UHGV virus genome: UHGV-0371537 | Origin: a virus | Length of the DNA: 64,000 nt | Reading direction: 5' to 3' (one strand) | Shown: piece by piece, positions 3,505-61,927 of the stretch | Layout of the letters: each line of letters opens with the position of its first letter | Numbering within the stretch: the stretch's first letter is position 1 | Translations under genes and position numbers: made by a program | The notes under the pieces: generated by a model | What the model was told of the DNA's origin: nothing | Database searches by the model: none | What the model saw: only the letters and a program-made list of their open reading frames with translations

Positions 3505-5223
3505 GTGACAGCATTCAATCAATATACCAAGGCGCTTGATGGCGTCGGACCAGTTAGCATAGACCGCATCAAGTCTCTTGCCACTGAGTTCTTCCCATAC
3601 GACACCGCCAACCCCGGCCAGATGGAGTGCATCGTTGAAGCCGTTGATGCCCTTGTGAATAAGAAATTCAAACACGTGATCATCGAGGCTCCAACTGGTG
3701 TGGGCAAATCCCTCATTGGCACGACCATCCATAACGTGCTTCGCCATCTGGTTCTTGAGCGCAACCCATATGGTCAGTTCCGCACGTCTATCACGACGCC
3801 GACCAAAGGGCTACAGGATCAGTATGCGGCGGAGAAAGCCGTGGCGATAGACATCCTGAAGGGTAAGAAAAACTATCGTTGCCATATCAGTCCCGACCTG
3901 TACTACAACGCCATTCAGTGTCGTATGGCATGCCGTGACGGCCACTGTAGTAAGAATCGTTGCCCATATGTTCAGGCTCGTCGTCTTTGGACGGATATCT
4001 CCTCCCTGCGCTGCACCAACGCCGCCATGATGGTGGAGATGTGCACGACGATCTGTATGAAGCCCGAAAACCGCGCCGATATGCTGATCCTTGACGAGTG
4101 CCATAAGATGCCCTCTACGCTCCTAGAGCACACGATCATGGAATACAGTATAAATGCTGTAAGAGGGTTGCTTACAATCCCCGAGGGAGTGCCTATCGTG
4201 GAGACCATCACGGATATCATCAGGCGCACAGAAAACTATGAGCTGGGCAAGCTGTACTCACTAACAGGTGAGATGCATGCGATCTTTGACGACCTGCATG
4301 ACAAGGTTGAAGCCCTCTTAGAAACCCTTGAGGAACTGGTAGAAGACGAGCGCCTGACGGAAGCTCAGGTGATGAAGCTGTCTGACATCATTGACACCCT
4401 TCACAACCTCAGCGACTACTGTGGCATCATGGGTCAGACCAACGCCAGCACCTTCATCGTTCAGGAAAAAGACAAGGGTATGATCCAGTTCAAGCCTGTC
4501 ATCGCATCTGATGTGTCTCAGTTCGGCCTGTTCCGCAAGGGCGATTACCATGTTCACATGTCAGCGACCATCTGCGGGATTGAGTCCTATGCTCGTTCTC
4601 TGGGTATCCGTGAGGGCGAATATCACAAGATTCAAATCGGCAACCCCATCCCGATTGAGAATCGTAAGGTCAACTACATGCCCGTCATGAAGATGTCGGC
4701 CAACATGGGCGACTACGAGATGAAGAAGCTGGCCGAGTACGTGGATGAGATCATTGCATTCCATCCAGGACAGTCTGGCATCATTCACACAGTCAGTTAT
4801 GACCGCGCTCTGGCTCTACAGAAGTTCAGCAAGTACCGGAATATGATTCACGTTCCTCGTACTCGTAAGGCTCTGATGGATATCATGGAGCAGGCGTTCA
4901 GGACGAAGACGCCTTGTGTCATCGCCAGTCCGGCTATGGAAGAGGGGTATGACTTCAAAGGCGATTACAGCCGCTTCCAGATCCTGATCAAGGTTCCATA
5001 CGATTACCTTGGTGACCCGCTTGTGGCTCATGTAAACAGTGTAGACCCTTCGGCATACTTCAGGATGGCGGTACTGCGTATCGTGCAGATGTGCGGGCGC
5101 TCGGTCAGGGGTGTGAATGACTGGGCTGCGACATACATCCTTGATTCTTCATTTGAATCATTAATGATGCGCAACCCAGAGTTCTTCCCCGCATGGTTCA
5201 CCGATGCTGTGTTCGAGGTTTAG
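3505..5223 (+). CDS. SF2 helicase with DinG/XPD-like features (possible Fe-S helicase)
   Basis: GTG start after aggagg; Q-motif PGQM, Walker A EAPTGVGKS, DECH box, cluster of Cys (RCH..QC..AC..HC..RC) between Walker A and B as in XPD/DinG Fe-S domains. Confidence 0.7.
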   Translation: MTAFNQYTKALDGVGPVSIDRIKSLATEFFPYDTANPGQMECIVEAVDALVNKKFKHVIIEAPTGVGKSLIGTTIHNVLRHLVLERNPYGQFRTSITTPTKGLQDQYAAEKAVAIDILKGKKNYRCHISPDLYYNAIQCRMACRDGHCSKNRCPYVQARRLWTDISSLRCTNAAMMVEMCTTICMKPENRADMLILDECHKMPSTLLEHTIMEYSINAVRGLLTIPEGVPIVETITDIIRRTENYELGKLYSLTGEMHAIFDDLHDKVEALLETLEELVEDERLTEAQVMKLSDIIDTLHNLSDYCGIMGQTNASTFIVQEKDKGMIQFKPVIASDVSQFGLFRKGDYHVHMSATICGIESYARSLGIREGEYHKIQIGNPIPIENRKVNYMPVMKMSANMGDYEMKKLAEYVDEIIAFHPGQSGIIHTVSYDRALALQKFSKYRNMIHVPRTRKALMDIMEQAFRTKTPCVIASPAMEEGYDFKGDYSRFQILIKVPYDYLGDPLVAHVNSVDPSAYFRMAVLRIVQMCGRSVRGVNDWAATYILDSSFESLMMRNPEFFPAWFTDAVFEV

Positions 5224-5987
5224 TAACCCGCCACGAAGGACAGATGGCATTTGACATTAGGTTCCAATGATGTCACTGAAATTGTCATGCTGTCCGAATC
5301 TTGGCTGAAACTAATGTTGGCGAGAGGTTTGGTCTGTATGTGATTGTAGATGCTGTAGAACAGATCCTCGCCACGATACCCGACCTTGCCATCGGTGTCC
5401 TGCCAATGCCCCAGGGTTTCATCGTATACATGCACACGAAACTCGATCATGTGGAAGAGTGCCTTGGGGATGTCTTTGAGTATACTGGTGCCAACCACCG
5501 GAATCTCAATAGCTGAATCATTAGAATTCCCTTCATAGACCGAAGCCCATGCGAAGGTAGGATCACCGCCTGCAACAGGTGTACGCTTCCAGTATTGGAA
5601 CTCAGGGTTGCCTGAAGTGTTCTTCTGAAGTAGAATGACTTCGCCACCTGTGAAGTTCGTGGTGTCAATGTCATCTCTCTCAAGTACATCGGCCGGAGAC
5701 CCAATAAATTTCCAGCCTTCGCGATCCAGAAGAGACTTATAATAGTCGGTGAACACGTTGCTATCGCCAGCGGAGTTGATGGCGTCTTTGAGGCCTTGGC
5801 CTGTCACCATCTCATTCAGGCGAAGCCACATGTCCTTGACGGCAGACGCAGCTGCGACCTGCCCGACAGTCCCACCTGCAGTGTAATCATAGATGATATC
5901 TTCGAACTTGATAGCATCATTGATGGACAAGAGCAGTTGCTCAATCTGCGGTGCGGTGAGACTGAAACGATATGCGCGGGGTGCCAT
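5220..5987 (-). CDS. late-expressed protein, probable virion component (unassigned)
   Basis: ATG at 5987 with AGAGGA RBS; TATAAATA late-promoter box 35 nt upstream on minus strand; no family recognised. Confidence 0.55.
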   Translation of the reverse strand: MAPRAYRFSLTAPQIEQLLLSINDAIKFEDIIYDYTAGGTVGQVAAASAVKDMWLRLNEMVTGQGLKDAINSAGDSNVFTDYYKSLLDREGWKFIGSPADVLERDDIDTTNFTGGEVILLQKNTSGNPEFQYWKRTPVAGGDPTFAWASVYEGNSNDSAIEIPVVGTSILKDIPKALFHMIEFRVHVYDETLGHWQDTDGKVGYRGEDLFYSIYNHIQTKPLANISFSQDSDSMTISVTSLEPNVKCHLSFVAGY

Positions 5988-11610: not shown

Positions 11611-12225
11611 ATGACGATGACAACGTTGAAGGCCATGGCCTTGTCCGTGACCTTTACCATTGCCAGCGGGAATGTGCACGCTTCCCAAAATACAAGTCAA
11701 TGTGTTTATGATTTCTCTGAGCAACAACTTAATACGCTGGCAACTGCCTATCACATAGGCAAGACACAAGATCTTGGTTACACTCTGGCCGCCATATCTT
11801 GGCGAGAGAGCCGCGCTGGTGAAGATGTAGTGTCAATGCGCTATGGACTCAAGGCGGCCAACATGGGAGCCTTTCAGAACAAGGTGAAGACAGTTGGTGA
11901 TCGCGAAGGTTGTAAGAATCGCAAGTGCTATGCCAATGTCGCCATAAAGTTGCTGACCGACCAAGAATATGCCGCGCAAGCCGCCCTCGAAGAGATGCAG
12001 TTCTGGCTGACCTATCACAAGCAGAATGTACGCAAATCCCTCTCCTCTTACAATGCTGGCTTCGCCCGTAATCCCGCATCGAACGCTTATGCCGCTGACG
12101 TCGTGAAGAAAGCTAAATATCTTCAGAAATGTGTGTCCTTCAAAGGCCGGACCATCTCCGAGGTAGATCCTCAGGTGATCGCCATGAACAAGCGCACGAT
12201 AGAGAAACTGAAGAGGACAAGATAA
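11611..12225 (+). CDS. secreted lytic transglycosylase-like protein (SLT domain)
   Basis: N-terminal signal-peptide-like MTMTTLKAMALSVTFTIASGNVHA; AISWRESRAGE...GAFQ...YNAG resemble SLT catalytic motifs (E-S, GLMQ, AYNAG). Confidence 0.55.
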   Translation: MTMTTLKAMALSVTFTIASGNVHASQNTSQCVYDFSEQQLNTLATAYHIGKTQDLGYTLAAISWRESRAGEDVVSMRYGLKAANMGAFQNKVKTVGDREGCKNRKCYANVAIKLLTDQEYAAQAALEEMQFWLTYHKQNVRKSLSSYNAGFARNPASNAYAADVVKKAKYLQKCVSFKGRTISEVDPQVIAMNKRTIEKLKRTR

Positions 12226-19116: not shown

Positions 19117-19140
19117 AGGCCTCGTCGAATGAGGCCTTTT
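19117..19140 (+). terminator. rho-independent terminator
   Basis: aggcctc-gtcgaat-gaggcct then TTT. Confidence 0.5.
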
Positions 19141-19181
19141 AAAATACTTCAAAAATATTTTAAAAATTTATTGAAAAAGAC

Positions 19182-19210
19182 TTTACTCTTCAATAATGAT
19201 GCACTATTAT
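19182..19210 (+). promoter_or_regulatory. early-type promoter TTTACT-N17-TATTAT followed by stem-loop 19222-19238
   Basis: Read directly; TTCAATAA lies in the spacer. Confidence 0.5.
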
Positions 19211-19283
19211 AGTTCACATAGGGCGGTAACACACCGCCGAATGAAAAGTGAAACGAACCAACTACATTATGAGGAATTACATC

Positions 19284-19772
19284 ATGGCTACTACCAAAAC
19301 TCTGATCACCAACGGCACCATCTCTTTCGAACTGAACACCGAAGTTGCTAAAGTTGAAATGTTCCGCATCGCTCAGGCAGCTGGCTTCACTGGTGGCAAA
19401 ACTTCCTTCATGAACCTGCTGAACGGCAAAGTGGAAGCGACTAACGGCTTCACCCTGGTAGAGCAGACTGTGGTTGACAAAGCCGTGGTTGCTAAGGCTG
19501 CTGACAAAGTTGGCATGCTGAAAGACCTGGGTCACGACATCCACGTTGTCGAAGCGAATACCGAAACTTACGGCACCATCGTAGTCGGTAAAGGTCGCAT
19601 CCAGCTGAACCCACTGAACAACGGTTCCTTCTCTGTGATGGTCTTCCCTAAGAAGGGCTATGACAACACAGACATCGTGAAAGCTGCTGGCGGCGAAGCG
19701 AAAGCTCAGTATGTCAAAATGGGTAAACTGAGCGCCAAAGACGTTCAGACCCTGGTGAGCAAACTGGCTTAA
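19284..19772 (+). CDS. hypothetical protein
   Basis: gagga RBS; sits behind promoter plus stem-loop cassette and before a terminator. Confidence 0.5.
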   Translation: MATTKTLITNGTISFELNTEVAKVEMFRIAQAAGFTGGKTSFMNLLNGKVEATNGFTLVEQTVVDKAVVAKAADKVGMLKDLGHDIHVVEANTETYGTIVVGKGRIQLNPLNNGSFSVMVFPKKGYDNTDIVKAAGGEAKAQYVKMGKLSAKDVQTLVSKLA

Positions 19773-20311: not shown

Positions 20312-20380
20312 CACGGCAGTTCCTCAAGTAGTTCACTTTCACTTTAAATACCTTCGCATTCATTGCGGAGGTATTTTCTT

Positions 20381-21175
20381 ATGGCCATTCTAAAACTTGG
20401 CAACCGTGGCACTGAAGTGAAGGCACTTCAGGATAGCCTCAACAAAATCGGCTTCACCCTCGTCGCCGACGGCATCTTTGGTAAGGCAACAGAGAACGCT
20501 GTCAAGACTGTTCAGGCGGGTGCGGGGCTTGTCATCGACGGTATCGTGGGTCCAAAGACCTCCTATGCTATTCGCAACGCTGGAGACGCCCATCAAGATC
20601 ACCTGACCGAGGCTGACCTTATCGATGCGGCTAATCAGCTTGGAGTTGATCTCGCCTCTGTAAAGGCGGTCAACCAGGTGGAATCCCGTGGCACTGGCTT
20701 CACCAAGTCAGGTAAGATCAAGACATTGTTCGAACGCCACATCATGTACAAGAAGCTCATGGCGAAGTTCGGCCAGGCTCGGGCGAATGCTATAGGGCAG
20801 ATGTACCCGACGTTGGTCAGTCCTTCTGCAGGTGGGTACACGGGCGGCGATGCAGAACTGGATCGACTTCATGCGGCCATCAACATCGACGAGGATTGTG
20901 CGTACGAGAGTGCCTCATACGGTCTCTTCCAGATCATGGGCTTCAACTGCCAGGTCTGTGGGTATGCCAATGCCAAGGAGATGTTCAATGACTTCCTGAC
21001 AGGCGAACGTGCTCATCTGATGGCATTCGTGAAGTTCATCAAGGCCGATGCCAAGCTCTGGCAGGCTCTGAAGGACAAGAACTGGGCTGAGTTTGCGCGG
21101 CGCTATAATGGTCCGGCGTATGCCAAGAACCAGTACGACACGAAGCTCGCTGCTGCATACAAGAGTTTCAGTTAA
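20381..21175 (+). CDS. endolysin: peptidoglycan-binding domain plus N-acetylmuramidase-like domain
   Basis: N-terminus LKLGNRGTEVKALQDSLNKIGF...DGIFGKAT...GIVGPKT = PG_binding_1-like; C-terminus WAEFARRYNGPAYAKNQYDTKL typical of the DUF3380/muramidase family; ggagg RBS. Confidence 0.8.
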   Translation: MAILKLGNRGTEVKALQDSLNKIGFTLVADGIFGKATENAVKTVQAGAGLVIDGIVGPKTSYAIRNAGDAHQDHLTEADLIDAANQLGVDLASVKAVNQVESRGTGFTKSGKIKTLFERHIMYKKLMAKFGQARANAIGQMYPTLVSPSAGGYTGGDAELDRLHAAINIDEDCAYESASYGLFQIMGFNCQVCGYANAKEMFNDFLTGERAHLMAFVKFIKADAKLWQALKDKNWAEFARRYNGPAYAKNQYDTKLAAAYKSFS

Positions 21176-28025: not shown

Positions 28026-29636
28026 TTACTCTTCGGTGCCGAAATTACCACCATTGTCTTTTAATTCTGCCTTGATATCAATCTCACCTGGACCCGTAGG
28101 GGATGCAGGGGTTGCACCTGACAGAGAAGAGGCGCGACCAGCACCTTCCGCATATTTGATGTTGCCATTAATCGTCTGGGCCACAGTCAGTTTGTCGGCG
28201 ATGATCTCTGTTGCCAGAATCTTAGGAACCTTCAACGTCCCGCCGACCTCCAGAGTCTCACAGATAATACGCAAAATATTCTGCGCCTGCAACTCAGCCA
28301 GGTTGCTGAATTTCATCAACGCTGTGCCAGCAACAACATTAGAATAGTTGTTGGAATGCAAATGATAGACTTCACCAGTCTTGCGCTGCACTTCCGTTCC
28401 TTTGATCGTCAGGTTGTGATCGCCGCCAACATAATAACGTTTGTTGAACATCGTCAGATCATAATGATCTTTCACAGACTTGTTCACAACGTCACCGTCT
28501 GGCAGCATTTGTTTGTACGACCCGGACATGTGCATCCAGTGAAGACGTTCGCCCCCCGGTGTGTCATCCACTTCCATGATGTGGCCAGCCCGAGAAGCCA
28601 TGACGTTGTTGTACGGATACTTGGACCCACCCGCAGCCGGAACCATAGTTTCGCCAGTGTTGTCAATGTCCTGAACACGGCCTGTTGGTGCTGGCGTTGC
28701 CTGCTCTTTCGGAGTCCGATCTGGAATTGGTTCTGACCATTTACCGTTCTGTTGGGCGGGGGCAGCCGCAGCTGTGTTTGCAGGTCCAGGCCAGCGATAG
28801 CCCAAGACCGAAGAACGGCTGAAACGACTGACCTTCACTGAATCGGATTGGTTGCCCCCGATACACCAGACATAGTTGGCATCGAACTTCTGCACGAACG
28901 CCACATGGCCGAATGTCGGGTTGTTACCGCGCCGGAAGACCACGATAGCGCCATACTGAGGTGCCGACAATGGACTACCCCACGTCAGGTAAGATCGGGC
29001 AAGAGCGGAGCGTGTGGAAGTGTATCCGGCCTTTAACATAACCCAACCAACAAACGCAGCGCACCAGGATACTTCATCTTCAGATGCACCAAGCGAGGTT
29101 GTCTTGTGATACTCAACGATGCGGGGGTTGTTGTTGAACTTGCCAGCATATTCTTTGACGCCAAGTTCACCACGGGCGATAGTCATCCATTTTTCAGGAT
29201 CATACCCACCCACAGGAGGCTGAGGGTCTGGCTGAGGTTCGTCTTCTTGCTTTACAGGTACATCAGTGACAGCATTGTACGCCTGACGTTCAACAGACAT
29301 GACGACCTGCCCCAGAGCCAGGGGGTTTGTGTCCGCCCCATCAGTCGGGGTCGCACCCGGCCAGGTCCATGCGATTCTGAGATTCTGGTATGCGTCATCC
29401 AGCGCGAACCCCATGACTTCCGTGCCGACAATGATACCCGTAGGGGACCAACCTAAACCTGCCGAGGAGGCATTCGACGCAGGCATCATCACTTTTGCCC
29501 ATGGGAGTTTATCCGTAGGCAAGAGGACGGGATCATCTGTATGTATGCCGTGTATGCGAACGGCCACGCGCCCGTTTTCATCAGGATCATTGACGTCTTC
29601 AACGGTGCCATAAAACCATCTCATTTTGTCTAACAT
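28026..29636 (-). CDS. 5: baseplate central spike/hub protein gp5-like carrying a CHAP peptidase domain
   Basis: N-terminal OB-like RWFYGTVEDVNDPDENGRVAVRIHG; central Cys/His pair SWCAAFVGW...GHVAFV (CHAP-like); C-terminal repetitive region. Confidence 0.65.
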   Translation of the reverse strand: MLDKMRWFYGTVEDVNDPDENGRVAVRIHGIHTDDPVLLPTDKLPWAKVMMPASNASSAGLGWSPTGIIVGTEVMGFALDDAYQNLRIAWTWPGATPTDGADTNPLALGQVVMSVERQAYNAVTDVPVKQEDEPQPDPQPPVGGYDPEKWMTIARGELGVKEYAGKFNNNPRIVEYHKTTSLGASEDEVSWCAAFVGWVMLKAGYTSTRSALARSYLTWGSPLSAPQYGAIVVFRRGNNPTFGHVAFVQKFDANYVWCIGGNQSDSVKVSRFSRSSVLGYRWPGPANTAAAAPAQQNGKWSEPIPDRTPKEQATPAPTGRVQDIDNTGETMVPAAGGSKYPYNNVMASRAGHIMEVDDTPGGERLHWMHMSGSYKQMLPDGDVVNKSVKDHYDLTMFNKRYYVGGDHNLTIKGTEVQRKTGEVYHLHSNNYSNVVAGTALMKFSNLAELQAQNILRIICETLEVGGTLKVPKILATEIIADKLTVAQTINGNIKYAEGAGRASSLSGATPASPTGPGEIDIKAELKDNGGNFGTEE

Positions 29637-29670
29637 ATTGAGTTCCGGTTGTCAAACAAGGATTTGAAGG

Positions 29671-29678
29671 TATTTATG
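29671..29678 (-). promoter_or_regulatory. late-promoter-like box CATAAATA upstream of gp5-like gene
   Basis: One mismatch to TATAAATA; 35 nt upstream of ATG 29636. Confidence 0.3.
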
Positions 29679-29972
29679 CGCAGCGGATTTTGCCTTATAT
29701 ACTATAGGAAGCTCTGCTTCCGTTCAGTTATTGTCTTATTCGATCTTATTCGCTTCGCTCATCACACCGCCTTATGCAGGCAGCACCATTCCAATGCCAT
29801 GGAGGCATAAGGGCGAGGCAATAACTGTACACCTCAGAACATCCCTTGAAAAATGGTTTTTAATTGACAATCTGATTCAAAATAGACGATCCCCAACAAT
29901 GACTCAGGAACAAGCCCATTATAACAATTTCAGGTAAAGAGAGCGCGTGTTAACCTGTTTTGCAGTTAAGCC

Positions 29973-29997
29973 AATAAAAATCCCGCCGAAGCGGGAT
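29973..29997 (-). terminator. rho-independent terminator on minus strand
   Basis: atcccgc-cgaa-gcgggat; on minus strand the hairpin is followed by TTTTTATT. Confidence 0.6.
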
Positions 29998-30145
29998 TAT
30001 GGTTTCTTAGACAACCTGACCTTGAGGGCTTCAGTTAACAAGTCAAGGTGCCATGGCATCGATTCATTGATTTCAAATATGTTATAGCCGTGTAACTTCA
30101 ATTCATCACACATCACGAAATAGGATAATAAATCAGTTTCAAACA

Positions 30146-30952
30146 TTAAATGAAAATTTCATTAATGCTATTGAACTCAATAGGATGCTCTTTACCACAT
30201 TTAGGGCATTTGATTTTGTTCTTGTAGTGGATGCGAGGAATTTTATGGAAGAAGTTCTTCGTAATATCCTCGATAACATCCGATTCAAGATTGTCTTTTA
30301 CCCATTCAATGAAAGCGTCTTTGACACGACGACGCTCAATAGATTCTTCGGGCGTGATGCCCGGTTCATCCGGGTTCTCTACACGCCATACTTGTCCATC
30401 GTCATCATACAGACAATCAATGAAAGTCGCCAGCATTTCTTCAATGCTAGATGATTCAGACAGAGCCGTGGCATCGGCAAAGGAGGGCTGGCGCATCTTC
30501 AGATGATAACCACCCGGCAGGTCAAAGATTTCTTTAAACCCTTCCTTCGCTACACACTTGACATTCAGTAGAGGGATAGGCAGCACCAGTTCCTGCTTAC
30601 AAGGAACCATGGTTTTCTTCTCGATTCCTTCCCCGACGTCTGTCGTTTCTTCGATTTGGTTGTTGCATTCATAGCGGATTTTCATCAATTCGCCAATAGC
30701 GATGCTACGCATGCGGATGAACACTTCTTCAACAACACCGATCGGCAGTTTGTTAAACGGTGCCCCGGCTTCAACACAATCTGCAAACAGGCTTTCCATA
30801 ATCGCAGCACGCTCTTCAACCGGAGTCTGAGGATCCGCGACCTGTAGCATGAGAGTTTGTTGCCCGGCAGTGAAAGCGCGATATCTGATGACACTCGGCC
30901 AAAAATCGCTTTTGAATGTCTTTTCTGTTCTGGGCAATGAAGGTAATTTCAT
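30146..30952 (-). CDS. late protein with C-terminal zinc ribbon (baseplate-associated?)
   Basis: ATG 30952 with GGAG RBS; TATAAATA late-promoter box at 30981-30988 (minus); C-terminal CPKCGKEH. Confidence 0.5.
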   Translation of the reverse strand: MKLPSLPRTEKTFKSDFWPSVIRYRAFTAGQQTLMLQVADPQTPVEERAAIMESLFADCVEAGAPFNKLPIGVVEEVFIRMRSIAIGELMKIRYECNNQIEETTDVGEGIEKKTMVPCKQELVLPIPLLNVKCVAKEGFKEIFDLPGGYHLKMRQPSFADATALSESSSIEEMLATFIDCLYDDDGQVWRVENPDEPGITPEESIERRRVKDAFIEWVKDNLESDVIEDITKNFFHKIPRIHYKNKIKCPKCGKEHPIEFNSINEIFI

Positions 30953-33665: not shown

Positions 33666-33762
33666 TTCAGTGCAGTAACGGGGTATAATTACCCCGCTTT
33701 AAAGTAAATCGATAATACATGCAACAGAATAGCCCTGAGGGGCGGAAACAGAGGAATTAGAA

Positions 33763-34804: not shown

Positions 34805-34828
34805 AAAGCCCTCTTCGGAGGGCTTTTT
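34805..34828. terminator. bidirectional terminator between gene 32 and convergent minus-strand gene
   Basis: aaagccctc-ttcg-gagggcttt: 9-bp stem with A-run and T-run. Confidence 0.7.
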
Positions 34829-35771
34829 ATTTCCCCATCACGTCGCGCAAAATGCCGAGCAGATTTGTCTTTTCGGCTGCTGTCAAATTGTCATTTCCCA
34901 TGATGTCTCGTGAGATACCAACTGAGATGCGCTCGAAGTCCTGGAGACTGATTCCAGCAAGGTTGTTCACCAATTGGTCCAGTTGTTTGTAAGCCAGGAG
35001 AGCCTCTCCTGTGAAGTTCCCTTCCTTCACCTTGCGATAAAGCTGTCCGGCTTTGGAGGCCGCAGTTTCCCAGTCACCACTGGCAAGAGCATCAGCAATC
35101 CCAAGAGGAAGAAAATCGCTGGCAAGGCTGCGTGTTTCATATTCTGTCTCCGATAAGACTTTGTTGTAAGAGAATGTGATGTTGTATTGGTTGAACTGGT
35201 CTGTGGCTCCCTTGTCCAGTTCGATTGTACTGAAGTTGATCGGATGCGCTTCAACGATGTAGACGCGATGGACAACCTGATCTTCCGTATCCATCTGCTC
35301 GATACAGATATCGGTTACGAAATCTTCGTAATAACCCATCTTGGTCGTGTACGGATCAAAGATCAGATTCTTCCACTTGTCCATCACAGACTTTTCATAA
35401 TAATCGTTTGCCAAGAGGAATGTCAGATCCAAGTCCACGTTGGACTTGTTGTTCGGCATCTTGATGTGGTTGCCGTTGTTGGTCATTGGAGTCGTGTCGA
35501 TACCAACCCCTGGCATTCCAGCAACCATACACATCATTTGCAAGGAACGGGACGTTTGGTTTGTCCCTCCAAAGAAAGCGTTTACAATACGGGCTGTCTG
35601 TTTGAACAAATCACCAAACGAAGATCCGGTTGCATATGCCTTCCCGTCGTTGGCGAGAGTGGCATTGCTGTCGAATATGCCTGGTGGCAGGGGGATGGTG
35701 ACCCGGAATCGGTTCTTCCGTGATATCCCGCGCTGTAATAATTCGGTGATGAAATTGCGATAGTCTTCCAC
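34827..35771 (-). CDS. putative virion structural protein (tail/baseplate-associated, unassigned)
   Basis: GTG start with GGAG RBS; shares bidirectional terminator with gene 32; weak resemblance to tail-tube-family N-termini. Confidence 0.4.
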   Translation of the reverse strand: MEDYRNFITELLQRGISRKNRFRVTIPLPPGIFDSNATLANDGKAYATGSSFGDLFKQTARIVNAFFGGTNQTSRSLQMMCMVAGMPGVGIDTTPMTNNGNHIKMPNNKSNVDLDLTFLLANDYYEKSVMDKWKNLIFDPYTTKMGYYEDFVTDICIEQMDTEDQVVHRVYIVEAHPINFSTIELDKGATDQFNQYNITFSYNKVLSETEYETRSLASDFLPLGIADALASGDWETAASKAGQLYRKVKEGNFTGEALLAYKQLDQLVNNLAGISLQDFERISVGISRDIMGNDNLTAAEKTNLLGILRDVMGK

Positions 35772-38474: not shown

Positions 38475-38505
38475 GGGGCTGCTATAATAGCAGCTCCTTT
38501 TGTTT
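38475..38505 (+). terminator. rho-independent terminator whose loop contains TATAAT
   Basis: 8-bp stem (one G-U), loop tataata, then ttttgtttatt. Confidence 0.6.
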
Positions 38506-45277: not shown

Positions 45278-45306
45278 CAGATCATAGGGTATAATTCTAT
45301 GATCTG
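45278..45306 (+). promoter_or_regulatory. perfect 10-bp stem-loop with TATAAT in the loop
   Basis: cagatcatag / ctatgatctg; loop ggtataatt; not followed by a T-run. Confidence 0.4.
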
Positions 45307-46055: not shown

Positions 46056-46084
46056 TTTACTTTCAAGAATAAAGCGCCTATTAT
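46056..46084 (+). promoter_or_regulatory. early-type promoter TTTACT-N17-TATTAT
   Basis: Flanked by TTCAATAA (46047-46054) and TATTGAAG (46093-46100). Confidence 0.5.
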
Positions 46085-46115
46085 TTAATCTCTATTGAAG
46101 AGTTGTTACTAAATC

Positions 46116-47321
46116 ATGAGGCTGGAAATGAACGCCAAAACATTCAACATTCCGATCGACAATGAAGGGCTAGTGGTTGAGCGACTGAAAAAGCTCGAGC
46201 GCACTGCTGTCCGTCTGGGTGTACCATTCCCGACTGTGACTTATGGTGAACCCTTCAAGACCCACACCCGTGACTTCACTGGTGAGATCCTCACTCACTG
46301 GTGGAAGCCCGTCACCCTCGAAGGTGAAGGCATTGACCGCCCGGTGTCATACGGTGGTTGGAAAATCATTGGTCAGTTCAATCACGAATACCCAAAGGTC
46401 ATTCTGAACCGACTGTCCGACAATATCAATGCTGACTTCATCCGTCGCTTCGAGACAGAGAATGTCTCTTGGTGCCAGCATTGCAACCTGCTCATCAATC
46501 GCAAGAACACATATGTGATTGAAAACGAGGAAACGCACACTCAGATGCTGATCGGCAGCACCTGCATGCATCATTATGTGCCTCATCAGAAGTCCCTTGA
46601 CGCGATCATGTCTTACTATCTGGGAATCCAGGAGTTCTTCATGCCGGATGAAGATGATCCAGAGGGCATCTATCGCGTTCGTAACGAACAATTCACAGAT
46701 ACCCACAATTACCTGCGTGCGTGCTTCCAGGTGATGCTGTCTGGCGTAGACATCAAGTCTGAACTATTTGACAAAGTCCTGGGCTATGTCCGGTCTTATC
46801 AGAAACCAAAAGCAGGTTCCGATGAAGAGCATTTCGTATACAAGGCACACGAGTACCGTGAAGACGCCGAGTCAGAAATGTACCACATGAAGCTCTTCAT
46901 CAGTGCGCTGTCTGAATCCAATGAATTCAACGTTCGCCTGAAACGCATGTGTGAACCGGGCTACCACCTGATCAAGGACGATAACACAGTCCGCTGGGGT
47001 GCCAAGAAGTATTACGATTACATCCATCGCCCTCGCGCCGACCGCAAGACAGAGAACAAATGGGTGGGCGAAGTCGGGGAGATGCTGGAAGTACAAGTCA
47101 GGTTCGACAAGCGCGTCTTCCTCTTCTCCAATGAATACGGTGACAGCTACCTGTTTACTTTCAAAACAGTAGAAGGCAATACAATTACCTGGAAGACCTC
47201 TTGTATGGATACAGAGTTCTTGCAGGGCGATATGATCATCCGTGGTCGTGTCAAAGAACTGACTGAGTACAACGGTGTTAAACAAACTCAGGTCACCCGA
47301 GCCAAATTGAGGAAATTATGA
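46116..47321 (+). CDS. hypothetical protein with Cys/His cluster and C-terminal OB-fold-like domain
   Basis: WCQHC...STCMHH cluster; C-terminal VGEVGEMLEVQV...ITWKT...GDMIIRGRVKE resembles OB-fold; alternative start 46128. Confidence 0.5.
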   Translation: MRLEMNAKTFNIPIDNEGLVVERLKKLERTAVRLGVPFPTVTYGEPFKTHTRDFTGEILTHWWKPVTLEGEGIDRPVSYGGWKIIGQFNHEYPKVILNRLSDNINADFIRRFETENVSWCQHCNLLINRKNTYVIENEETHTQMLIGSTCMHHYVPHQKSLDAIMSYYLGIQEFFMPDEDDPEGIYRVRNEQFTDTHNYLRACFQVMLSGVDIKSELFDKVLGYVRSYQKPKAGSDEEHFVYKAHEYREDAESEMYHMKLFISALSESNEFNVRLKRMCEPGYHLIKDDNTVRWGAKKYYDYIHRPRADRKTENKWVGEVGEMLEVQVRFDKRVFLFSNEYGDSYLFTFKTVEGNTITWKTSCMDTEFLQGDMIIRGRVKELTEYNGVKQTQVTRAKLRKL

Positions 47322-47632: not shown

Positions 47633-47845
47633 ATGGAATGTTCATGCGGAGGGCAGGGCACAAGTGCTTACCTGCCATTTACCACCGTGAAGGAAGCCGA
47701 AGCCGCCGGGTTTGCCGTGGACAAGGCTCCCTGTGTAATCGCCACGAAGGATTGCCCGTGCTGTAAGAGGCACTCTCAGGACGTCTTCTACGCCCCTGAC
47801 GCGCGCCCAGCTACGGTCAACCTGCTTTCACTGATGAGGAAGTGA
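47633..47845 (+). CDS. small Cys-rich protein (70 aa)
   Basis: MECSCGGQG...CVIATKDCPCCKRH; gggagga RBS. Confidence 0.4.
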   Translation: MECSCGGQGTSAYLPFTTVKEAEAAGFAVDKAPCVIATKDCPCCKRHSQDVFYAPDARPATVNLLSLMRK

Positions 47846-47907
47846 AATGCGCAAGTATTTCAACTGGTTGTTGGCAAGATCCCGCAGCCAATAATCTATT
47901 GAAGTCC

Positions 47908-47940
47908 CCAGGGTTATAATAGCAACACATATAACCCTGG
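47908..47940 (+). promoter_or_regulatory. stem-loop with embedded TATAAT that pairs the ligase Shine-Dalgarno
   Basis: 11-bp stem ccagggttata/tataaccctgg; TATAAT 47915-47920; GGAG 47939-47942 half inside the 3' arm; ATG 47950. Confidence 0.45.
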
Positions 47941-47949
47941 AGACATTAC

Positions 47950-49374
47950 ATGATCCCTATCCTTGCAACAGTTCACCGACTTCGAGAAGCCAAAGGCAGC
48001 AATGCGAAGAAATCTGTGTTGACCGAAGCGTTCAAGAATTGTCCAGACATGGCAGACTTCCTGCAATACGTCTATGACCCAATGACGTCGTTCTATCGGA
48101 CCGAGTTGAAGCTCAGCGCGTATCCTCGCATGCTCGTCCGTGAGAAGACTGATGACATCAGCGAAGTCTATGACGTCCTCGATCAGATGGCGCAGCGTCT
48201 TGTCGGTGGTCAAAAGGCTGATGCCCTGCTGGCCTCTGTTGCTCTGAAGATGGACCCACAGTACCACGAACTCATTCAGATGATCCTGGACCGTGATATC
48301 AAGGCGGGTATTGCTGAGAAGGGCATCAACGCTGCATTCAACGCTGCTGGGGGTACAGGTCGCCTGATCAACATTCTTCCGTATCATCGTTATGACAACA
48401 TGACGATTGACCTGCTGAAGAAGATGGACTTCAAGCGCGGTGTCTACAGCCAGCTGAAGTCAGACGGTATGTTCGCCAACATCATCTGTCGGTACAACAA
48501 AGAGCCTGAGATTCGCTCACGCTCCGGTTCCCTTATCGCAGGCGGTTCGGTCGACAATCTGTCACTGGTGTTCAAGGACATCATCTATGATACGGGGATT
48601 GGTGAGAGTGTATTCCATGGTGAACTGCTCGTTGTTGACCTCAAGTCGAATTCTATCCTACCTCGCGCTGTCGGCAACGGTAAACTCAATAGCGTGATTC
48701 AGACTGGCGAACCCCTGGAAGATCGTTATCAGGTGATCTACCGGGTGTGGGATGTCGTACCTTATGAGAAGTGGTTCAACGCCGAGCGCGTGGGCACCCC
48801 GTATGAGCGCCGCTTCGATATCATCCAGCAACTGTTTTACGAAGACGATGGTCTGGTGCAGGTGCAGGAAACTCGTGTTGTTCACTCATTTGCCGAAGCC
48901 GTCGACCACTTCAAAGACGCGCTGGCTCGTAAAGAAGAAGGCACGATCTGTAAGGCTGCTGACATGCCGTGGGAAGACGGGACTTCCTCGGAAGGTCTGA
49001 AGCTGAAGATGGAAGTGGAGTGCGACCTTGAAATTGTTGGTTTCAACGAGGCCGACAAGAAAGGCAAACACGCCAAGACCTTTGGCTCACTGCTTTGTAA
49101 GACTTCCGATGGCTTGCTTGTTGTTGGCGTCTCAGGGATCTCAGATGAGCTGAGACTCCGTATGTGGGAGAACCAAGGCGACTACATTGGCAAGATCGCC
49201 GCAGTGCTCTCCAATGGCGTGCAGGATAAGACAGACGATGCACTGAAGTCGCTGTTCCTGCCTCGCCTTGCTGAAATTCGTATTGACAAGAAAGTGGCCA
49301 ACACGCTGGATGAAGTCTATGCGATTCAGAAAGCATACATCGAAAACATCGTATTCCTGTTGGAGTCTGCATAA
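47950..49374 (+). CDS. 30: ATP-dependent DNA ligase (gp30-like)
   Basis: 474 aa; adenylation motif I YSQLKSDGMF (KxDG); size as T4 ligase. Confidence 0.85.
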   Translation: MIPILATVHRLREAKGSNAKKSVLTEAFKNCPDMADFLQYVYDPMTSFYRTELKLSAYPRMLVREKTDDISEVYDVLDQMAQRLVGGQKADALLASVALKMDPQYHELIQMILDRDIKAGIAEKGINAAFNAAGGTGRLINILPYHRYDNMTIDLLKKMDFKRGVYSQLKSDGMFANIICRYNKEPEIRSRSGSLIAGGSVDNLSLVFKDIIYDTGIGESVFHGELLVVDLKSNSILPRAVGNGKLNSVIQTGEPLEDRYQVIYRVWDVVPYEKWFNAERVGTPYERRFDIIQQLFYEDDGLVQVQETRVVHSFAEAVDHFKDALARKEEGTICKAADMPWEDGTSSEGLKLKMEVECDLEIVGFNEADKKGKHAKTFGSLLCKTSDGLLVVGVSGISDELRLRMWENQGDYIGKIAAVLSNGVQDKTDDALKSLFLPRLAEIRIDKKVANTLDEVYAIQKAYIENIVFLLESA

Positions 49375-49593: not shown

Positions 49594-49851
49594 ATGGACG
49601 AGCTATTCGCATTGGTGTGGTCATTAACGTTCTTGCTGTCCCTGGTTGTCAGCTCGCTTGTGATGGTGCTGGTGTGGATAGCTATTCCCGACATTAAGAA
49701 CCACAGGGTGCTCATTGCCGTGATGATCCTCGGCCTGAGCACTTCCCTTACTCTTCACTATTCCAAACAGGAGTATAATCCTGACAAACATTACAAGACA
49801 TTAGCGGAACGATATCATGATTTCAAAACTTCGAGAAGTCAAGGAAAATAA
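49594..49851 (+). CDS. small membrane protein
   Basis: Two hydrophobic segments (LVWSLTFLLSLVVSSLVMVLVWIAI; VLIAVMILGLSTSL); aagggg RBS. Confidence 0.4.
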   Translation: MDELFALVWSLTFLLSLVVSSLVMVLVWIAIPDIKNHRVLIAVMILGLSTSLTLHYSKQEYNPDKHYKTLAERYHDFKTSRSQGK

Positions 49852-58174: not shown

Positions 58175-58244
58175 TTCCGGTTCCTCTTAATAAACTAAGG
58201 GGAAGTATATACTCCCCCTTCTTCAATAACCGCTGAATCTTTAT

Positions 58245-61877: not shown

Positions 61878-61927
61878 TTGTTGTTACCAAACAAGGGGTC
61901 GAGGCGGTAATAATACCGCCTTTTTCT

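What the first reader, a model, noticed from the sequence alone, without database searches (positions are those of the whole stretch)
47897..47952. Embedded TATAAT in a hairpin that pairs the ligase ribosome-binding site
Upstream of the ligase ATG (47950) an 11-bp stem (47908-47918 with 47930-47940) pairs the first half of the GGAG at 47939-47942. A TATAAT sits at 47915-47920 in the 5' arm and loop, preceded 10 nt upstream by TATTGAAG. Transcripts starting upstream would sequester the SD, while transcripts initiated from the embedded -10 would lack the 5' arm and be translatable, the mechanism described for T4 lysozyme. Similar TATAAT-in-hairpin elements are at 38475-38497, 45278-45306, 33679-33696 and on the minus strand at 58199-58217 and 61903-61920.
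Basis: partly seen in the sequence, partly recalled or inferred. Interest (0 to 1): 0.5.

Follow-up and report, generated by a model that had tools for sequence, protein, structure and literature searches.

The report
Promoter-in-hairpin gate on phage ligase
Just upstream of the DNA ligase gene of this ViI-like (Ackermannviridae) phage, a conserved RNA hairpin hides the ribosome-binding site and carries a conserved promoter-like TATAAT inside it, so probably only transcripts started at that promoter are translated; this is a new example of a trick already known from phage T4.

Summary
The window is an Agtrevirus-like Ackermannviridae phage. The stem is longer than reported: 15 bp with one mismatch (47904-47918 / 47930-47944, -20.4 kcal/mol, z -6.8). 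It covers the whole GGAG.

TATAAT (47915-47920), TATTGAAG (47897-47904), an A 7 nt after the -10 (47927) and the 3' arm are conserved in four genera. The rest of the loop and the flanks vary. Stem changes keep pairing through G-U wobbles, which points to an RNA structure on the sense strand.

Opening the ribosome site costs 15-20 kcal/mol in read-through RNA, against 3-6 kcal/mol in RNA starting at 47927.

The T4 gene e-type reading is therefore the best explanation (about 0.55), with three qualifications:
- The -10 is sigma-70 type, not the phage's TATAAATA late type.
- There is no canonical -35.
- No 5'-end data were found.

The other "TATAAT-in-hairpin" sites are composite promoter-terminator cassettes, like the PeSLs of T4-type phages. 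None of them pairs a ribosome site.

The endolysin leader (20343-20383) is an even closer copy of the T4 lysozyme design.

Verdict: a new variant of a known kind, of moderate interest.

The parts
47897..47904 (+). Upstream box TATTGAAG, 10 nt before the -10. It is the reverse complement of the CTTCAATA motif that is common in this family's intergenic DNA.
   Evidence: Conserved 12/12 (TCTATTGAAGTC) in most orthologues. It is ATTGATG in IME250 and ATTTCAG in KWBSE43-6. TCAATA/TATTGA is enriched in intergenic DNA, z 7.7 in Vi01. Only three TATTGAAG-N10-(-10) sites occur in the whole Vi01 genome.
47904..47918 (+). 5' arm of the hairpin (GTCCCCAGGGTTATA).
   Evidence: Positions 47907-47910 vary between genera while keeping pairs (C-G/U-G; A-U/G-U/G-C).
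47915..47920 (+). Sigma-70-type -10 hexamer TATAAT, spanning the end of the 5' arm and the first loop bases.
   Evidence: 6/6 in all 14 aligned sequences from four genera, while the rest of the loop is 4-8/9 conserved. There is no -35 at 16-18 nt.
47919..47929 (+). 11-nt loop. It is variable except for the AT that completes the -10, one A, and the AC at 47927-47928.
47927..47927 (+). Predicted transcription start (an invariant A, 7 nt after the -10). This is an inference, not a mapped 5' end.
   Evidence: Alignment column 42 is invariant. RNA from this point folds at only -4 kcal/mol, z +1.1.
47930..47944 (+). 3' arm of the hairpin (TATAACCCTGGAGAC), which contains the Shine-Dalgarno sequence.
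   Evidence: It is 13-15/15 conserved.
47939..47942 (+). Shine-Dalgarno GGAG of the ligase gene, 7 nt before the ATG.
   Evidence: It is invariant in all orthologues.
47950..49374 (+). ATP-dependent DNA ligase gene (474 aa; T4 gp30 analogue).
   Evidence: Pfam PF01068, E 6e-14. Annotated as DNA ligase in relatives.

Best explanation
The element combines a promoter with a translational gate for the ligase gene.

Transcripts that enter from the upstream genes contain both arms of a 14-15 bp helix. That helix buries the ligase Shine-Dalgarno sequence, so these long RNAs are poorly translated for ligase.

A host-RNA-polymerase (sigma-70-type) -10 hexamer sits in the 5' arm and loop. Transcripts started from it begin at about A47927, inside the loop. 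They lack the 5' arm, leave the ribosome site open and are translated.

Ligase synthesis is thereby tied to the ligase's own promoter rather than to upstream transcription. There is no usable -35, and a conserved box (TATTGAAG) lies at about -30. The promoter is therefore probably weak on its own, or depends on a factor. That would delay ligase relative to the earliest genes.

What is shown: the sequence features, their conservation, and the predicted energetics.
What is inferred: promoter activity, the start site, the existence of read-through transcripts, and the timing.
For: 1. The helix is strong and non-random: -20.4 kcal/mol, z -6.76. The 121-nt read-through context has z -3.83.

2. Opening the region from SD-2 to AUG+12 costs 14.7-20.1 kcal/mol in read-through RNA. 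It costs 3.2-6.0 kcal/mol in RNA starting 7 nt after the -10. This holds in seven orthologues from four genera. The ligase start ranks 2nd of 101 predicted starts in the window.

3. The conservation pattern is what a promoter plus a gate would leave. The box is 12/12, the -10 is 6/6 in every sequence, the A at the predicted +1 is invariant, and the 3' arm is 13-15/15. By contrast the rest of the loop (4-8/9), the SD-ATG spacer (1-3/5) and the upstream flank (2-3/9) drift. The ligase coding DNA is only about 70% identical between these genera.

4. 92% of stem cells pair. Changes in the stem are U-G/C-G and A-U/G-U/G-C. The G-U pairs exist only on the sense strand, which favours an RNA structure over a double-stranded palindrome.

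5. No terminator-like site lies on the + strand between 46632 and 47950. The hairpin itself has no T-run, so read-through into the leader is expected.

6. The same family embeds conserved -10 hexamers in hairpins at other junctions. In Vi01 the hairpin at 33684 is lost but its TATAAT is kept, so the hexamer is selected in its own right.

7. The endolysin leader (20343-20383) shows the full T4 gene e design, conserved in four genera. The strategy is therefore in use in this family.

8. The mechanism itself is established for T4 genes e, soc, 49 and I-TevI (PMC3014915).
Against: - No canonical -35 lies at 16-18 bp and there is no TGn extended -10. The consensus scan does not call this site. IME250 alone has TGg before the -10.
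- No 5'-end or RNA-seq data for any Ackermannviridae phage were found in the held library.
- Covariation is weak. No pair changes on both sides relative to the commonest pair, and 153 of 500 shuffles reach the observed score.
- Part of the conservation is confounded. TATA of the -10 is also stem, and the 3' arm is also the Shine-Dalgarno sequence.
- TATTGAAG followed by a -10 occurs only three times per genome, so it is not a broad promoter class.
- Vibrio phages with the same ligase-helicase-loader synteny have no leader at all.
- Enrichment of TATAAT in hairpins is significant in the window but not over the whole Vi01 genome.
Confidence: 0.55

Rival explanations
1. The hairpin is only a translational brake or operator. 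It lowers ligase translation constitutively, or it is the binding site of a repressor or activator protein. All ligase mRNA is read-through, and the TATAAT is kept only because it forms part of the stem and loop.
For: The helix and its occlusion of the Shine-Dalgarno sequence are the best-supported parts. There is no -35 and no TGn. TATA of the hexamer is paired in the stem. A regA-like translational repressor gene is annotated in Vi01.
Against: The two unpaired bases that complete TATAAT, and the A at +7, are invariant while the neighbouring loop bases vary. A -20 kcal/mol block with no relief route is hard to reconcile with a replication enzyme. TATAAT survives loss of its hairpin at another site in Vi01.
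Confidence: 0.17
2. The hairpin is an RNA processing or stability element. It is cut (for example by RNase III, or by RNase E at the AU-rich UAUUGAAG) or it protects a processed end, and processing frees the ribosome site.
For: A conserved single-stranded AU-rich box lies directly 5' of a stable stem. Sense-strand wobble pairs point to RNA.
Against: A stem of 14-15 bp is short for RNase III (stated from my own knowledge). No Rfam family matches. A cut in the loop would leave the two arms paired. This reading does not explain the invariant -10 with +1 geometry.
Confidence: 0.08
3. Translational coupling: a ribosome finishing the small upstream ORF melts the 5' arm and hands over to the ligase start.
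For: In most genomes an ORF stops just before the box: at TAA in Vi01, CBA120, XF4 and K751, and at the TGA inside ATTGAAG in the P46FS4 annotation.
Against: The usual TAA lies 8-9 nt before the stem. By my estimate from the known ribosome footprint, a terminating ribosome would reach only the first 1-2 base pairs. In the window the upstream ORF is a deletion remnant with no in-frame start codon. In IME250 and Croc_ER14 the annotated upstream ORF ends 100-200 nt away.
Confidence: 0.07
4. The structure acts at the DNA level. The inverted repeat extrudes, or is bound as a palindrome, and either presents the -10 single-stranded (initiation without a -35) or serves as an operator.
For: -10 hexamers sit in hairpin loops at several promoters that lack a good -35. 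Stem sequences differ between sites, so shape rather than sequence would be what is read.
Against: G-U (G-T) wobbles would be A-C mismatches on the other strand, so a two-sided cruciform or palindrome is not conserved. Comparable stem-loops in T4-type phages act as transcription terminators (PMC2839356).
Confidence: 0.05

Closest known systems
T4 gene e (lysozyme)-type translational gating; also T4 soc, gene 49 and I-TevI (McPheeters et al. 1986, as reviewed in PMC3014915)
   Same: A helix in upstream-initiated transcripts sequesters the Shine-Dalgarno sequence. A promoter lies in the DNA that encodes the 5' strand, so locally initiated transcripts lack that strand and are translated. The geometry here is the same.
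   Different: The T4 cases use gp55-dependent late promoters (TATAAATA) and hold back late functions. Here the -10 is TATAAT, while this phage's own late promoters are TATAAATA. The gene is a DNA-replication enzyme. A conserved -30 box replaces a -35. Nothing has been tested experimentally.
PeSL/PmSL composite promoter-terminator cassettes of T4-type phages (Arbiol et al. 2010, PMC2839356; Comeau et al. 2014, PMC4122927)
   Same: Sigma-70-like promoters are fused to stem-loops. The stem-loop commonly overlaps the -10 box or lies between -35 and -10. The stems contain G-T pairs, and a Shine-Dalgarno sequence and start codon sit at the 3' end. The cassettes lie at borders of variable gene content. 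This describes the sites at 38483, 45290, 33684, 58205 and 61910. It also fits the variable gene content just upstream of the ligase element.
   Different: PeSL stem-loops are described as terminators or attenuators, not as occluders of the ribosome site. The ligase hairpin has no T-run and its 3' arm is the ribosome site. PeSL promoters match the full sigma-70 consensus with an AT-rich upstream region, whereas this one has no -35. ViI-like phages are not mentioned in the 2014 paper; the 2010 paper was not checked for them.
T4 middle (MotA/AsiA-dependent) promoters
   Same: A -10 of sigma-70 type is combined with a conserved box centred near -30 in place of a -35, upstream of DNA-metabolism genes.
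   Different: The box is TATTGAAG, not (a/t)(a/t)(a/t)TGCTT(t/c)A. ViI-like phages are reported to lack MotA and AsiA (PMC3184105). Only three such sites occur per genome.
Aeh1 mobE hairpin that sequesters the ribosome-binding site (Gibb and Edgell 2009; seen only in the reference list of PMC3014915)
   Same: An RNA hairpin occludes the ribosome-binding site of a phage gene that lies inside a longer transcription unit.
   Different: I know the details only from that citation and did not check them here. The gene is a homing endonuclease.

Membership tests
T4 gene e-type promoter-in-hairpin translational gate | A stable helix in upstream-initiated RNA pairs the Shine-Dalgarno sequence and/or the AUG. 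| tested here: met
   The helix has 15 positions, folds at -20.4 kcal/mol and covers GGAG. Opening energy is 15-20 kcal/mol in seven orthologues.
T4 gene e-type promoter-in-hairpin translational gate | A promoter is placed so that its transcripts start 3' of the 5' strand of the helix. | tested here: inconclusive
   An invariant TATAAT with an invariant A 7 nt downstream lies in the loop. There is no -35, and no 5'-end data were found.
T4 gene e-type promoter-in-hairpin translational gate | The internal promoter is a gp55-type late promoter (TATAAATA). | tested here: not met
   The hexamer is TATAAT, followed by A/T then G/A. The late-type TATAAATA is found upstream of the gp26, gp5 and other late genes in the same window.
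T4 gene e-type promoter-in-hairpin translational gate | Upstream transcripts read into the leader. | tested here: inconclusive
   No terminator-like site lies on the + strand between 46632 and 47950, and promoter-like sites lie upstream. No transcripts have been observed.
T4 gene e-type promoter-in-hairpin translational gate | Long and short transcripts are translated with measurably different efficiency. | not testable with these tools
   This needs reporter fusions, toeprinting or ribosome profiling.
PeSL composite promoter-terminator cassette | A sigma-70-like promoter is fused to a stem-loop, intergenic, with a Shine-Dalgarno sequence and ATG at the 3' end. | tested here: met
   The -10 overlaps the stem-loop and SD/ATG follow. 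Overlap of the stem-loop with the -10 is one of the commonest PeSL subclasses (PMC2839356).
PeSL composite promoter-terminator cassette | The promoter matches the full sigma-70 consensus (-35 and -10) and has an AT-rich upstream region. | tested here: not met
   No hexamer with at least 4/6 matches to TTGACA lies 16-18 nt upstream.
PeSL composite promoter-terminator cassette | The stem-loop acts as a terminator or attenuator. | tested here: not met
   The ligase hairpin is followed by ATTACATGATCCC, with no T-run, and the terminator scan does not call it. The sites at 38483, 58205 and 33684 do have T-runs.
Canonical sigma-70 promoter | TTGACA-like -35, a 16-18 nt spacer and a TATAAT-like -10. 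| tested here: not met
   The -10 is perfect but there is no -35. TTGAAG lies only 10 nt upstream.
T4 MotA-dependent middle promoter | A MotA box (a/t)(a/t)(a/t)TGCTT(t/c)A at -30, together with MotA and AsiA genes. | tested here: not met
   The box sequence is TATTGAAG. MotA and AsiA are reported absent from ViI-like phages (PMC3184105); I did not search for them myself.
Described RNA families (Rfam 15) | A match to a curated covariance model. | tested here: not met
   There are no matches at E <= 1 in 47700-48100 and none at gathering score anywhere in the window.

The most novel reading that the evidence does not exclude
ViI-like phages may time their DNA-metabolism genes with a so far unrecognised promoter system. 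Host-type -10 hexamers would be embedded in RNA hairpins and paired with a family-specific box (TTCAATA, or its inverse TATTGAAG at -30) instead of a -35. An unidentified phage or host factor would read that box, acting as a functional counterpart of T4 MotA/AsiA, which these phages lack. The ligase leader would be the case in which this promoter is additionally wired to a translational gate. That would go some way to answering the question left open in 2011 of what the early and middle promoters of this family are.
Probability: 0.2. Interest if true: 0.6.

Novelty: new variant of a known kind. Interest (0 to 1): 0.42.

Why it matters
The CBA120 genome paper stated that the early and middle transcription signals of ViI-like (Ackermannviridae) phages could not be identified (PMC3184105). 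I found no transcription-start data for the family. These phages are widely used for biocontrol and as reporter phages.

A conserved, sharply bounded element now gives a concrete, testable candidate promoter, with a predicted start nucleotide and a -30 box. It also gives a clear prediction of translational gating for an essential replication enzyme.

If confirmed, it would extend the T4 lysozyme paradigm from late lysis and structural genes to a replication gene driven by a host-type promoter. It would also show that composite promoter/stem-loop cassettes can be adapted from terminators into ribosome-site gates. In practice, it marks where inserts can be placed without uncoupling ligase expression.

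Tried and rejected
- Late-promoter reading: rejected. Late genes in the window carry TATAAATA, TATAAGTA or cATAAATA. The ligase hexamer is TATAAT.
- Canonical sigma-70 promoter: rejected, because there is no -35.
- Intrinsic terminator: rejected for the ligase hairpin, because it has no T-run.
- Known RNA family: no match.
- RegB link: the 'putative RegB' annotated in Dickeya phage XF4 corresponds to window 11611-12225. That ORF matches a lytic transglycosylase domain, not RegB.
- TATTGAAG as a broad promoter class: rejected. The bipartite pattern gives 6 hits in the window against 3.5 expected. Only three conserved sites occur per Vi01 genome.
- More covariation from wider sampling led nowhere. 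IMG/VR gave 19 Ackermannviridae loci with only six distinct leader types. The metagenome scan gave one close relative. A DNA-pattern scan returned mostly chance hits.
- Distant relatives: Vibrio phages K471 and D492 lack the leader.
- Genome-wide enrichment of TATAAT in perfect hairpins is not significant in Vi01.
- Three literature searches for Ackermannviridae transcription starts or RNA-seq found nothing usable.
- An alternative promoter that would put the hairpin at the 5' end of the transcript (AATAAT at 47890-47895): rejected by eye. It is not conserved and has no suitably spaced -35.
Full report
**Identity of the window.** A 4-kb query around the finding matches 257 phage records. The best are Salmonella phage P46FS4, Enterobacter phage EspM4VN, Shigella phages MK-13 and Ag3, and Salmonella phage SKML-39, at 91-95% identity. 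P46FS4 is classified as Ackermannviridae, Aglimvirinae, Agtrevirus. The ORF at 47950-49374 matches the ATP-dependent DNA ligase domain PF01068 at E 6e-14 and is annotated as DNA ligase (T4 gp30) in relatives. Its neighbours are replication and recombination genes: UvsX, gp41 primase-helicase and the gp59 helicase loader.

**Checking the observation.** Every coordinate given for the ligase leader is correct. The helix is longer than reported. 47904-47918 pairs with 47930-47944 over 15 positions with one C-A mismatch, so all of GGAG is inside it. It folds at -20.4 kcal/mol, against -6.5 +/- 2.1 for shuffles (z -6.76). RNA beginning at 47927 folds at only -4 kcal/mol, z +1.1. I measured the energy needed to unpair the ribosome site in a fixed 180-nt context. 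The ligase start needs 20.1 kcal/mol, which ranks 2nd of 101 predicted starts (median 9.0). Several other high-ranking starts are spurious antisense ORF calls from my rough gene caller.

**Conservation.** The leader is present in every enterobacterial Ackermannviridae genome examined: Agtrevirus, Limestonevirus, Kuttervirus (Vi01, CBA120) and Taipeivirus (K751, UPM2146, IME250). BLAST homology with the distant genera begins at or just before the box, although the upstream genes differ. In a 14-sequence alignment, measured against the window sequence:
- TCTATTGAAGTC is 12/12 in most sequences.
- TATAAT is 6/6 in all.
- The A 7 nt after the hexamer is invariant.
- The 3' arm is 13-15/15.
- The rest of the loop (4-8/9), the SD-ATG spacer (1-3/5) and the upstream flank (2-3/9) drift.

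The variable stem positions change in ways that keep pairing: U-A/U-G, C-G/U-G, and A-U/G-U/G-C at 47910/47938. Overall 92% of stem cells pair. The formal covariation signal is weak, because 153 of 500 shuffles reach the observed score. I therefore treat the helix as conserved rather than proven by covariation. The G-U pairs exist only on the sense strand, which argues for RNA and against a double-stranded palindrome. In seven orthologues the opening energy is 14.7-20.1 kcal/mol for read-through RNA and 3.2-6.0 kcal/mol for RNA starting at the predicted +1.

**What kind of promoter.** The phage's late genes carry T4-type late promoters: TATAAATA before gp26 and the gene at 5220-5987, cATAAATA before gp5, and TATAAGTA before gp54. 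The ligase hexamer is not of that class. It is a perfect sigma-70 -10, but there is no -35 at 16-18 bp and no TGn, and the consensus scan does not call it.

The TATTGAAG box lies where a T4 MotA box would lie, but its sequence is different. ViI-like phages are reported to lack MotA and AsiA (PMC3184105). That paper also states that early and middle promoters could not be identified in this family. I found no transcription-start or RNA-seq study of the family in the held library.

**The box in context.** An unbiased 6-mer count shows TCAATA/TATTGA and ATTGAA/TTCAAT among the most enriched intergenic words, alongside terminator stems, the late-promoter word TAAATA, and TATAAT (Vi01: 42 of 190 copies in 7.5% of the genome, z 7.7). 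In the forward orientation the word usually lies at or near -35 (TTCAAT-N14-16-TATAAT/TATTAT), or in the spacer of canonical TTTACT-N16-17-TATACT promoters.

The reverse orientation, TATTGAAG 10-11 nt before a -10-like hexamer, occurs only three times in the Vi01 genome. The three sites precede the ligase, a dCMP-deaminase cluster (window 58227, minus strand) and a DexA cluster (window 61932, minus strand). All three are conserved across genera and all abut a hairpin. The box is therefore a real family motif, but TATTGAAG-N10 is a rare arrangement, not a broad promoter class.

**The other 'TATAAT-in-hairpin' sites.** They are real and conserved.
- 38483: TTCAAT-N15-TGcTATAAT inside a hairpin followed by TTTTGTTT.
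- 45290: TTCAAT-N16-TATAAT in the loop of a 9-bp stem that shows true compensatory changes in XF4 and K751.
- 33684: TATAAT in a CGGGGTA/TACCCCG hairpin. In Vi01 the hairpin is lost but TATAAT and TCAAT are kept.
- 58205 (minus strand): TATACT in a terminator hairpin with compensatory changes.
- 61910 (minus strand): TATTAT, which is TATAAT in Vi01.

None of them pairs a ribosome site. The Ag3 genome paper listed four of these hairpins as rho-independent terminators, and 38483 also as an early promoter. It did not annotate the ligase element (PMC3121705 Table S2).

This architecture corresponds to the PeSLs of T4-type phages. Those are sigma-70-like promoters fused to stem-loops, most often overlapping the -10 or lying between -35 and -10, with G-T pairs in the stem and SD/ATG at the 3' end. 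Both the promoter and the terminator activity of PeSLs have been shown experimentally, and PeSLs are implicated in shuffling of neighbouring genes (PMC2839356; PMC4122927). In line with that, gene content immediately upstream of the ligase element varies between genera. The window also lacks about 2 kb (ORF130-136 of P46FS4), and that deletion ends 25 nt before the box.

**Mechanism.** Taken together, the ligase leader is a PeSL-like cassette. Its stem-loop has no T-run and has extended its 3' arm over the Shine-Dalgarno sequence. That produces the arrangement established for T4 e, soc, 49 and I-TevI (PMC3014915). Long transcripts are translationally silent for the downstream gene, and transcripts from the embedded promoter are open. 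I put this at about 0.55.

The main rivals are:
- a pure translational brake or operator with a non-functional TATAAT (0.17);
- RNA processing or stability (0.08);
- coupling to the upstream ORF (0.07), which is weakened because the usual stop codon lies 8-9 nt before the stem and the ORF is only a remnant in this window;
- a DNA-level structure (0.05), which is weakened by the sense-strand-only wobbles.

**Limits of distribution.** Vibrio phages K471 and D492 have ligases 36-39% identical to this one and the same ligase-helicase-loader order. They have no leader: the upstream ORF stops 2 nt before the ligase ATG. The element is therefore specific to the enterobacterial clade.

**Side result.** The endolysin leader (20343-20383) has a late-promoter-like TTTAAATA inside the 5' arm of a 13-bp hairpin (-18 kcal/mol). 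The 3' arm of that hairpin holds GGAGG, and a T-run and the ATG follow. It is almost invariant in four genera, with wobble swaps in the stem. This is the direct analogue of the T4 lysozyme case, and it raises the prior that the family uses this strategy.

**Verdict.** The mechanism is a known one in a new family, with a different promoter class and target gene. It is unverified experimentally but sharply testable.

Noticed in passing
window 20343-20383 (+): The endolysin leader copies the T4 lysozyme design. TTTAAATA (late-promoter-like, 20343-20350) lies in the 5' arm of a 13-bp hairpin (20346-20358 / 20364-20376, -18 kcal/mol). The 3' arm holds the SD GGAGG (20367-20371), followed by a T-run and the ATG at 20381. 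It is nearly invariant in Vi01, XF4, K751 and P46FS4, with wobble swaps in the stem. The Ag3 paper listed it only as terminator Torf098.
   Followed up: partly
window-wide and the Vi01 genome (L030, L031, L036-L038): TCAATA/TATTGA and TTCAAT/ATTGAA are among the most enriched intergenic 6-mers (z 6-8). They define a recurrent TTCAAT-N14-16-TATAAT/TATTAT arrangement, often with the -10 in the loop of a terminator hairpin (for example Vi01 148126, 152538, 155364 and 76649 minus strand). This is a candidate early or middle promoter signature for the family.
   Followed up: partly
window 19120-19290 (+): An intergenic block of about 150 nt is almost invariant across four genera. It contains an A/T-rich tract, TTTACT-N17-TATTAT (a canonical strong-promoter geometry resembling T4 early promoters), then a GGGCGGT/ACCGCC hairpin with a variable loop.
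   Followed up: partly
window 49760-49800 (+), inside ORF 49594-49851: TATAAT (49774-49779) sits in a small CAGGA/TCCTG hairpin within the 3' end of a membrane-protein ORF. It is conserved at the nucleotide level in XF4 and K751 while the flanking codons diverge. It is probably an internal promoter for the gene starting at 49817.
   Followed up: no
window 11611-12225 (+): The homologue of the gene annotated 'putative RegB protein' in Dickeya phage XF4 matches the Pfam SLT lytic transglycosylase domain (E 2e-4, just at the cut-off), not RegB. The RegB annotation looks unsupported.
   Followed up: partly
window 47838-47902 (+) compared with P46FS4 (L001 4656-6905): The window lacks about 2 kb (ORF130-136 of P46FS4) immediately upstream of the ligase leader. 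47873-47902 is the leftover 3' end of the ORF136 homologue and has no in-frame start codon. Gene content upstream of the leader differs in every genus, as at the PeSL-flanked variable regions of T4-type phages.
   Followed up: partly
window 46056-46100 (+): A promoter-like TTTACT-N17-TATTAT is followed at the expected start by CTCTATTGAAG. This is another copy of the box, here in the 5' leader of the gene at 46128. TTGAA is conserved in Vi01 and K751. The role of the box at this position is unexplained.
   Followed up: no
window 28026-30952 (-), 5220-5987 (-), 34827-35771 (-): T4-type late promoters lie at the expected distance upstream of the baseplate and tail genes: TATAAATA before gp26 and the gene at 5220-5987, cATAAATA before gp5, and TATAAGTA before gp54. 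This agrees with the gp55 and gp33 homologues encoded in the same window.
   Followed up: partly
L161 320-420 and L162 (Vibrio phages K471 and D492): These 157-kb Vibrio phages have the same ligase-helicase-loader order but no ligase leader. The upstream ORF stop lies 2 nt before the ligase ATG, so they presumably use simple translational coupling.
   Followed up: partly
Vi01 record 89605-90069 (L036 7605-8069): A gene annotated as the regA translational repressor lies next to the clamp-loader genes. It is a possible trans-acting partner for conserved leaders in this family. I did not examine it.
   Followed up: no
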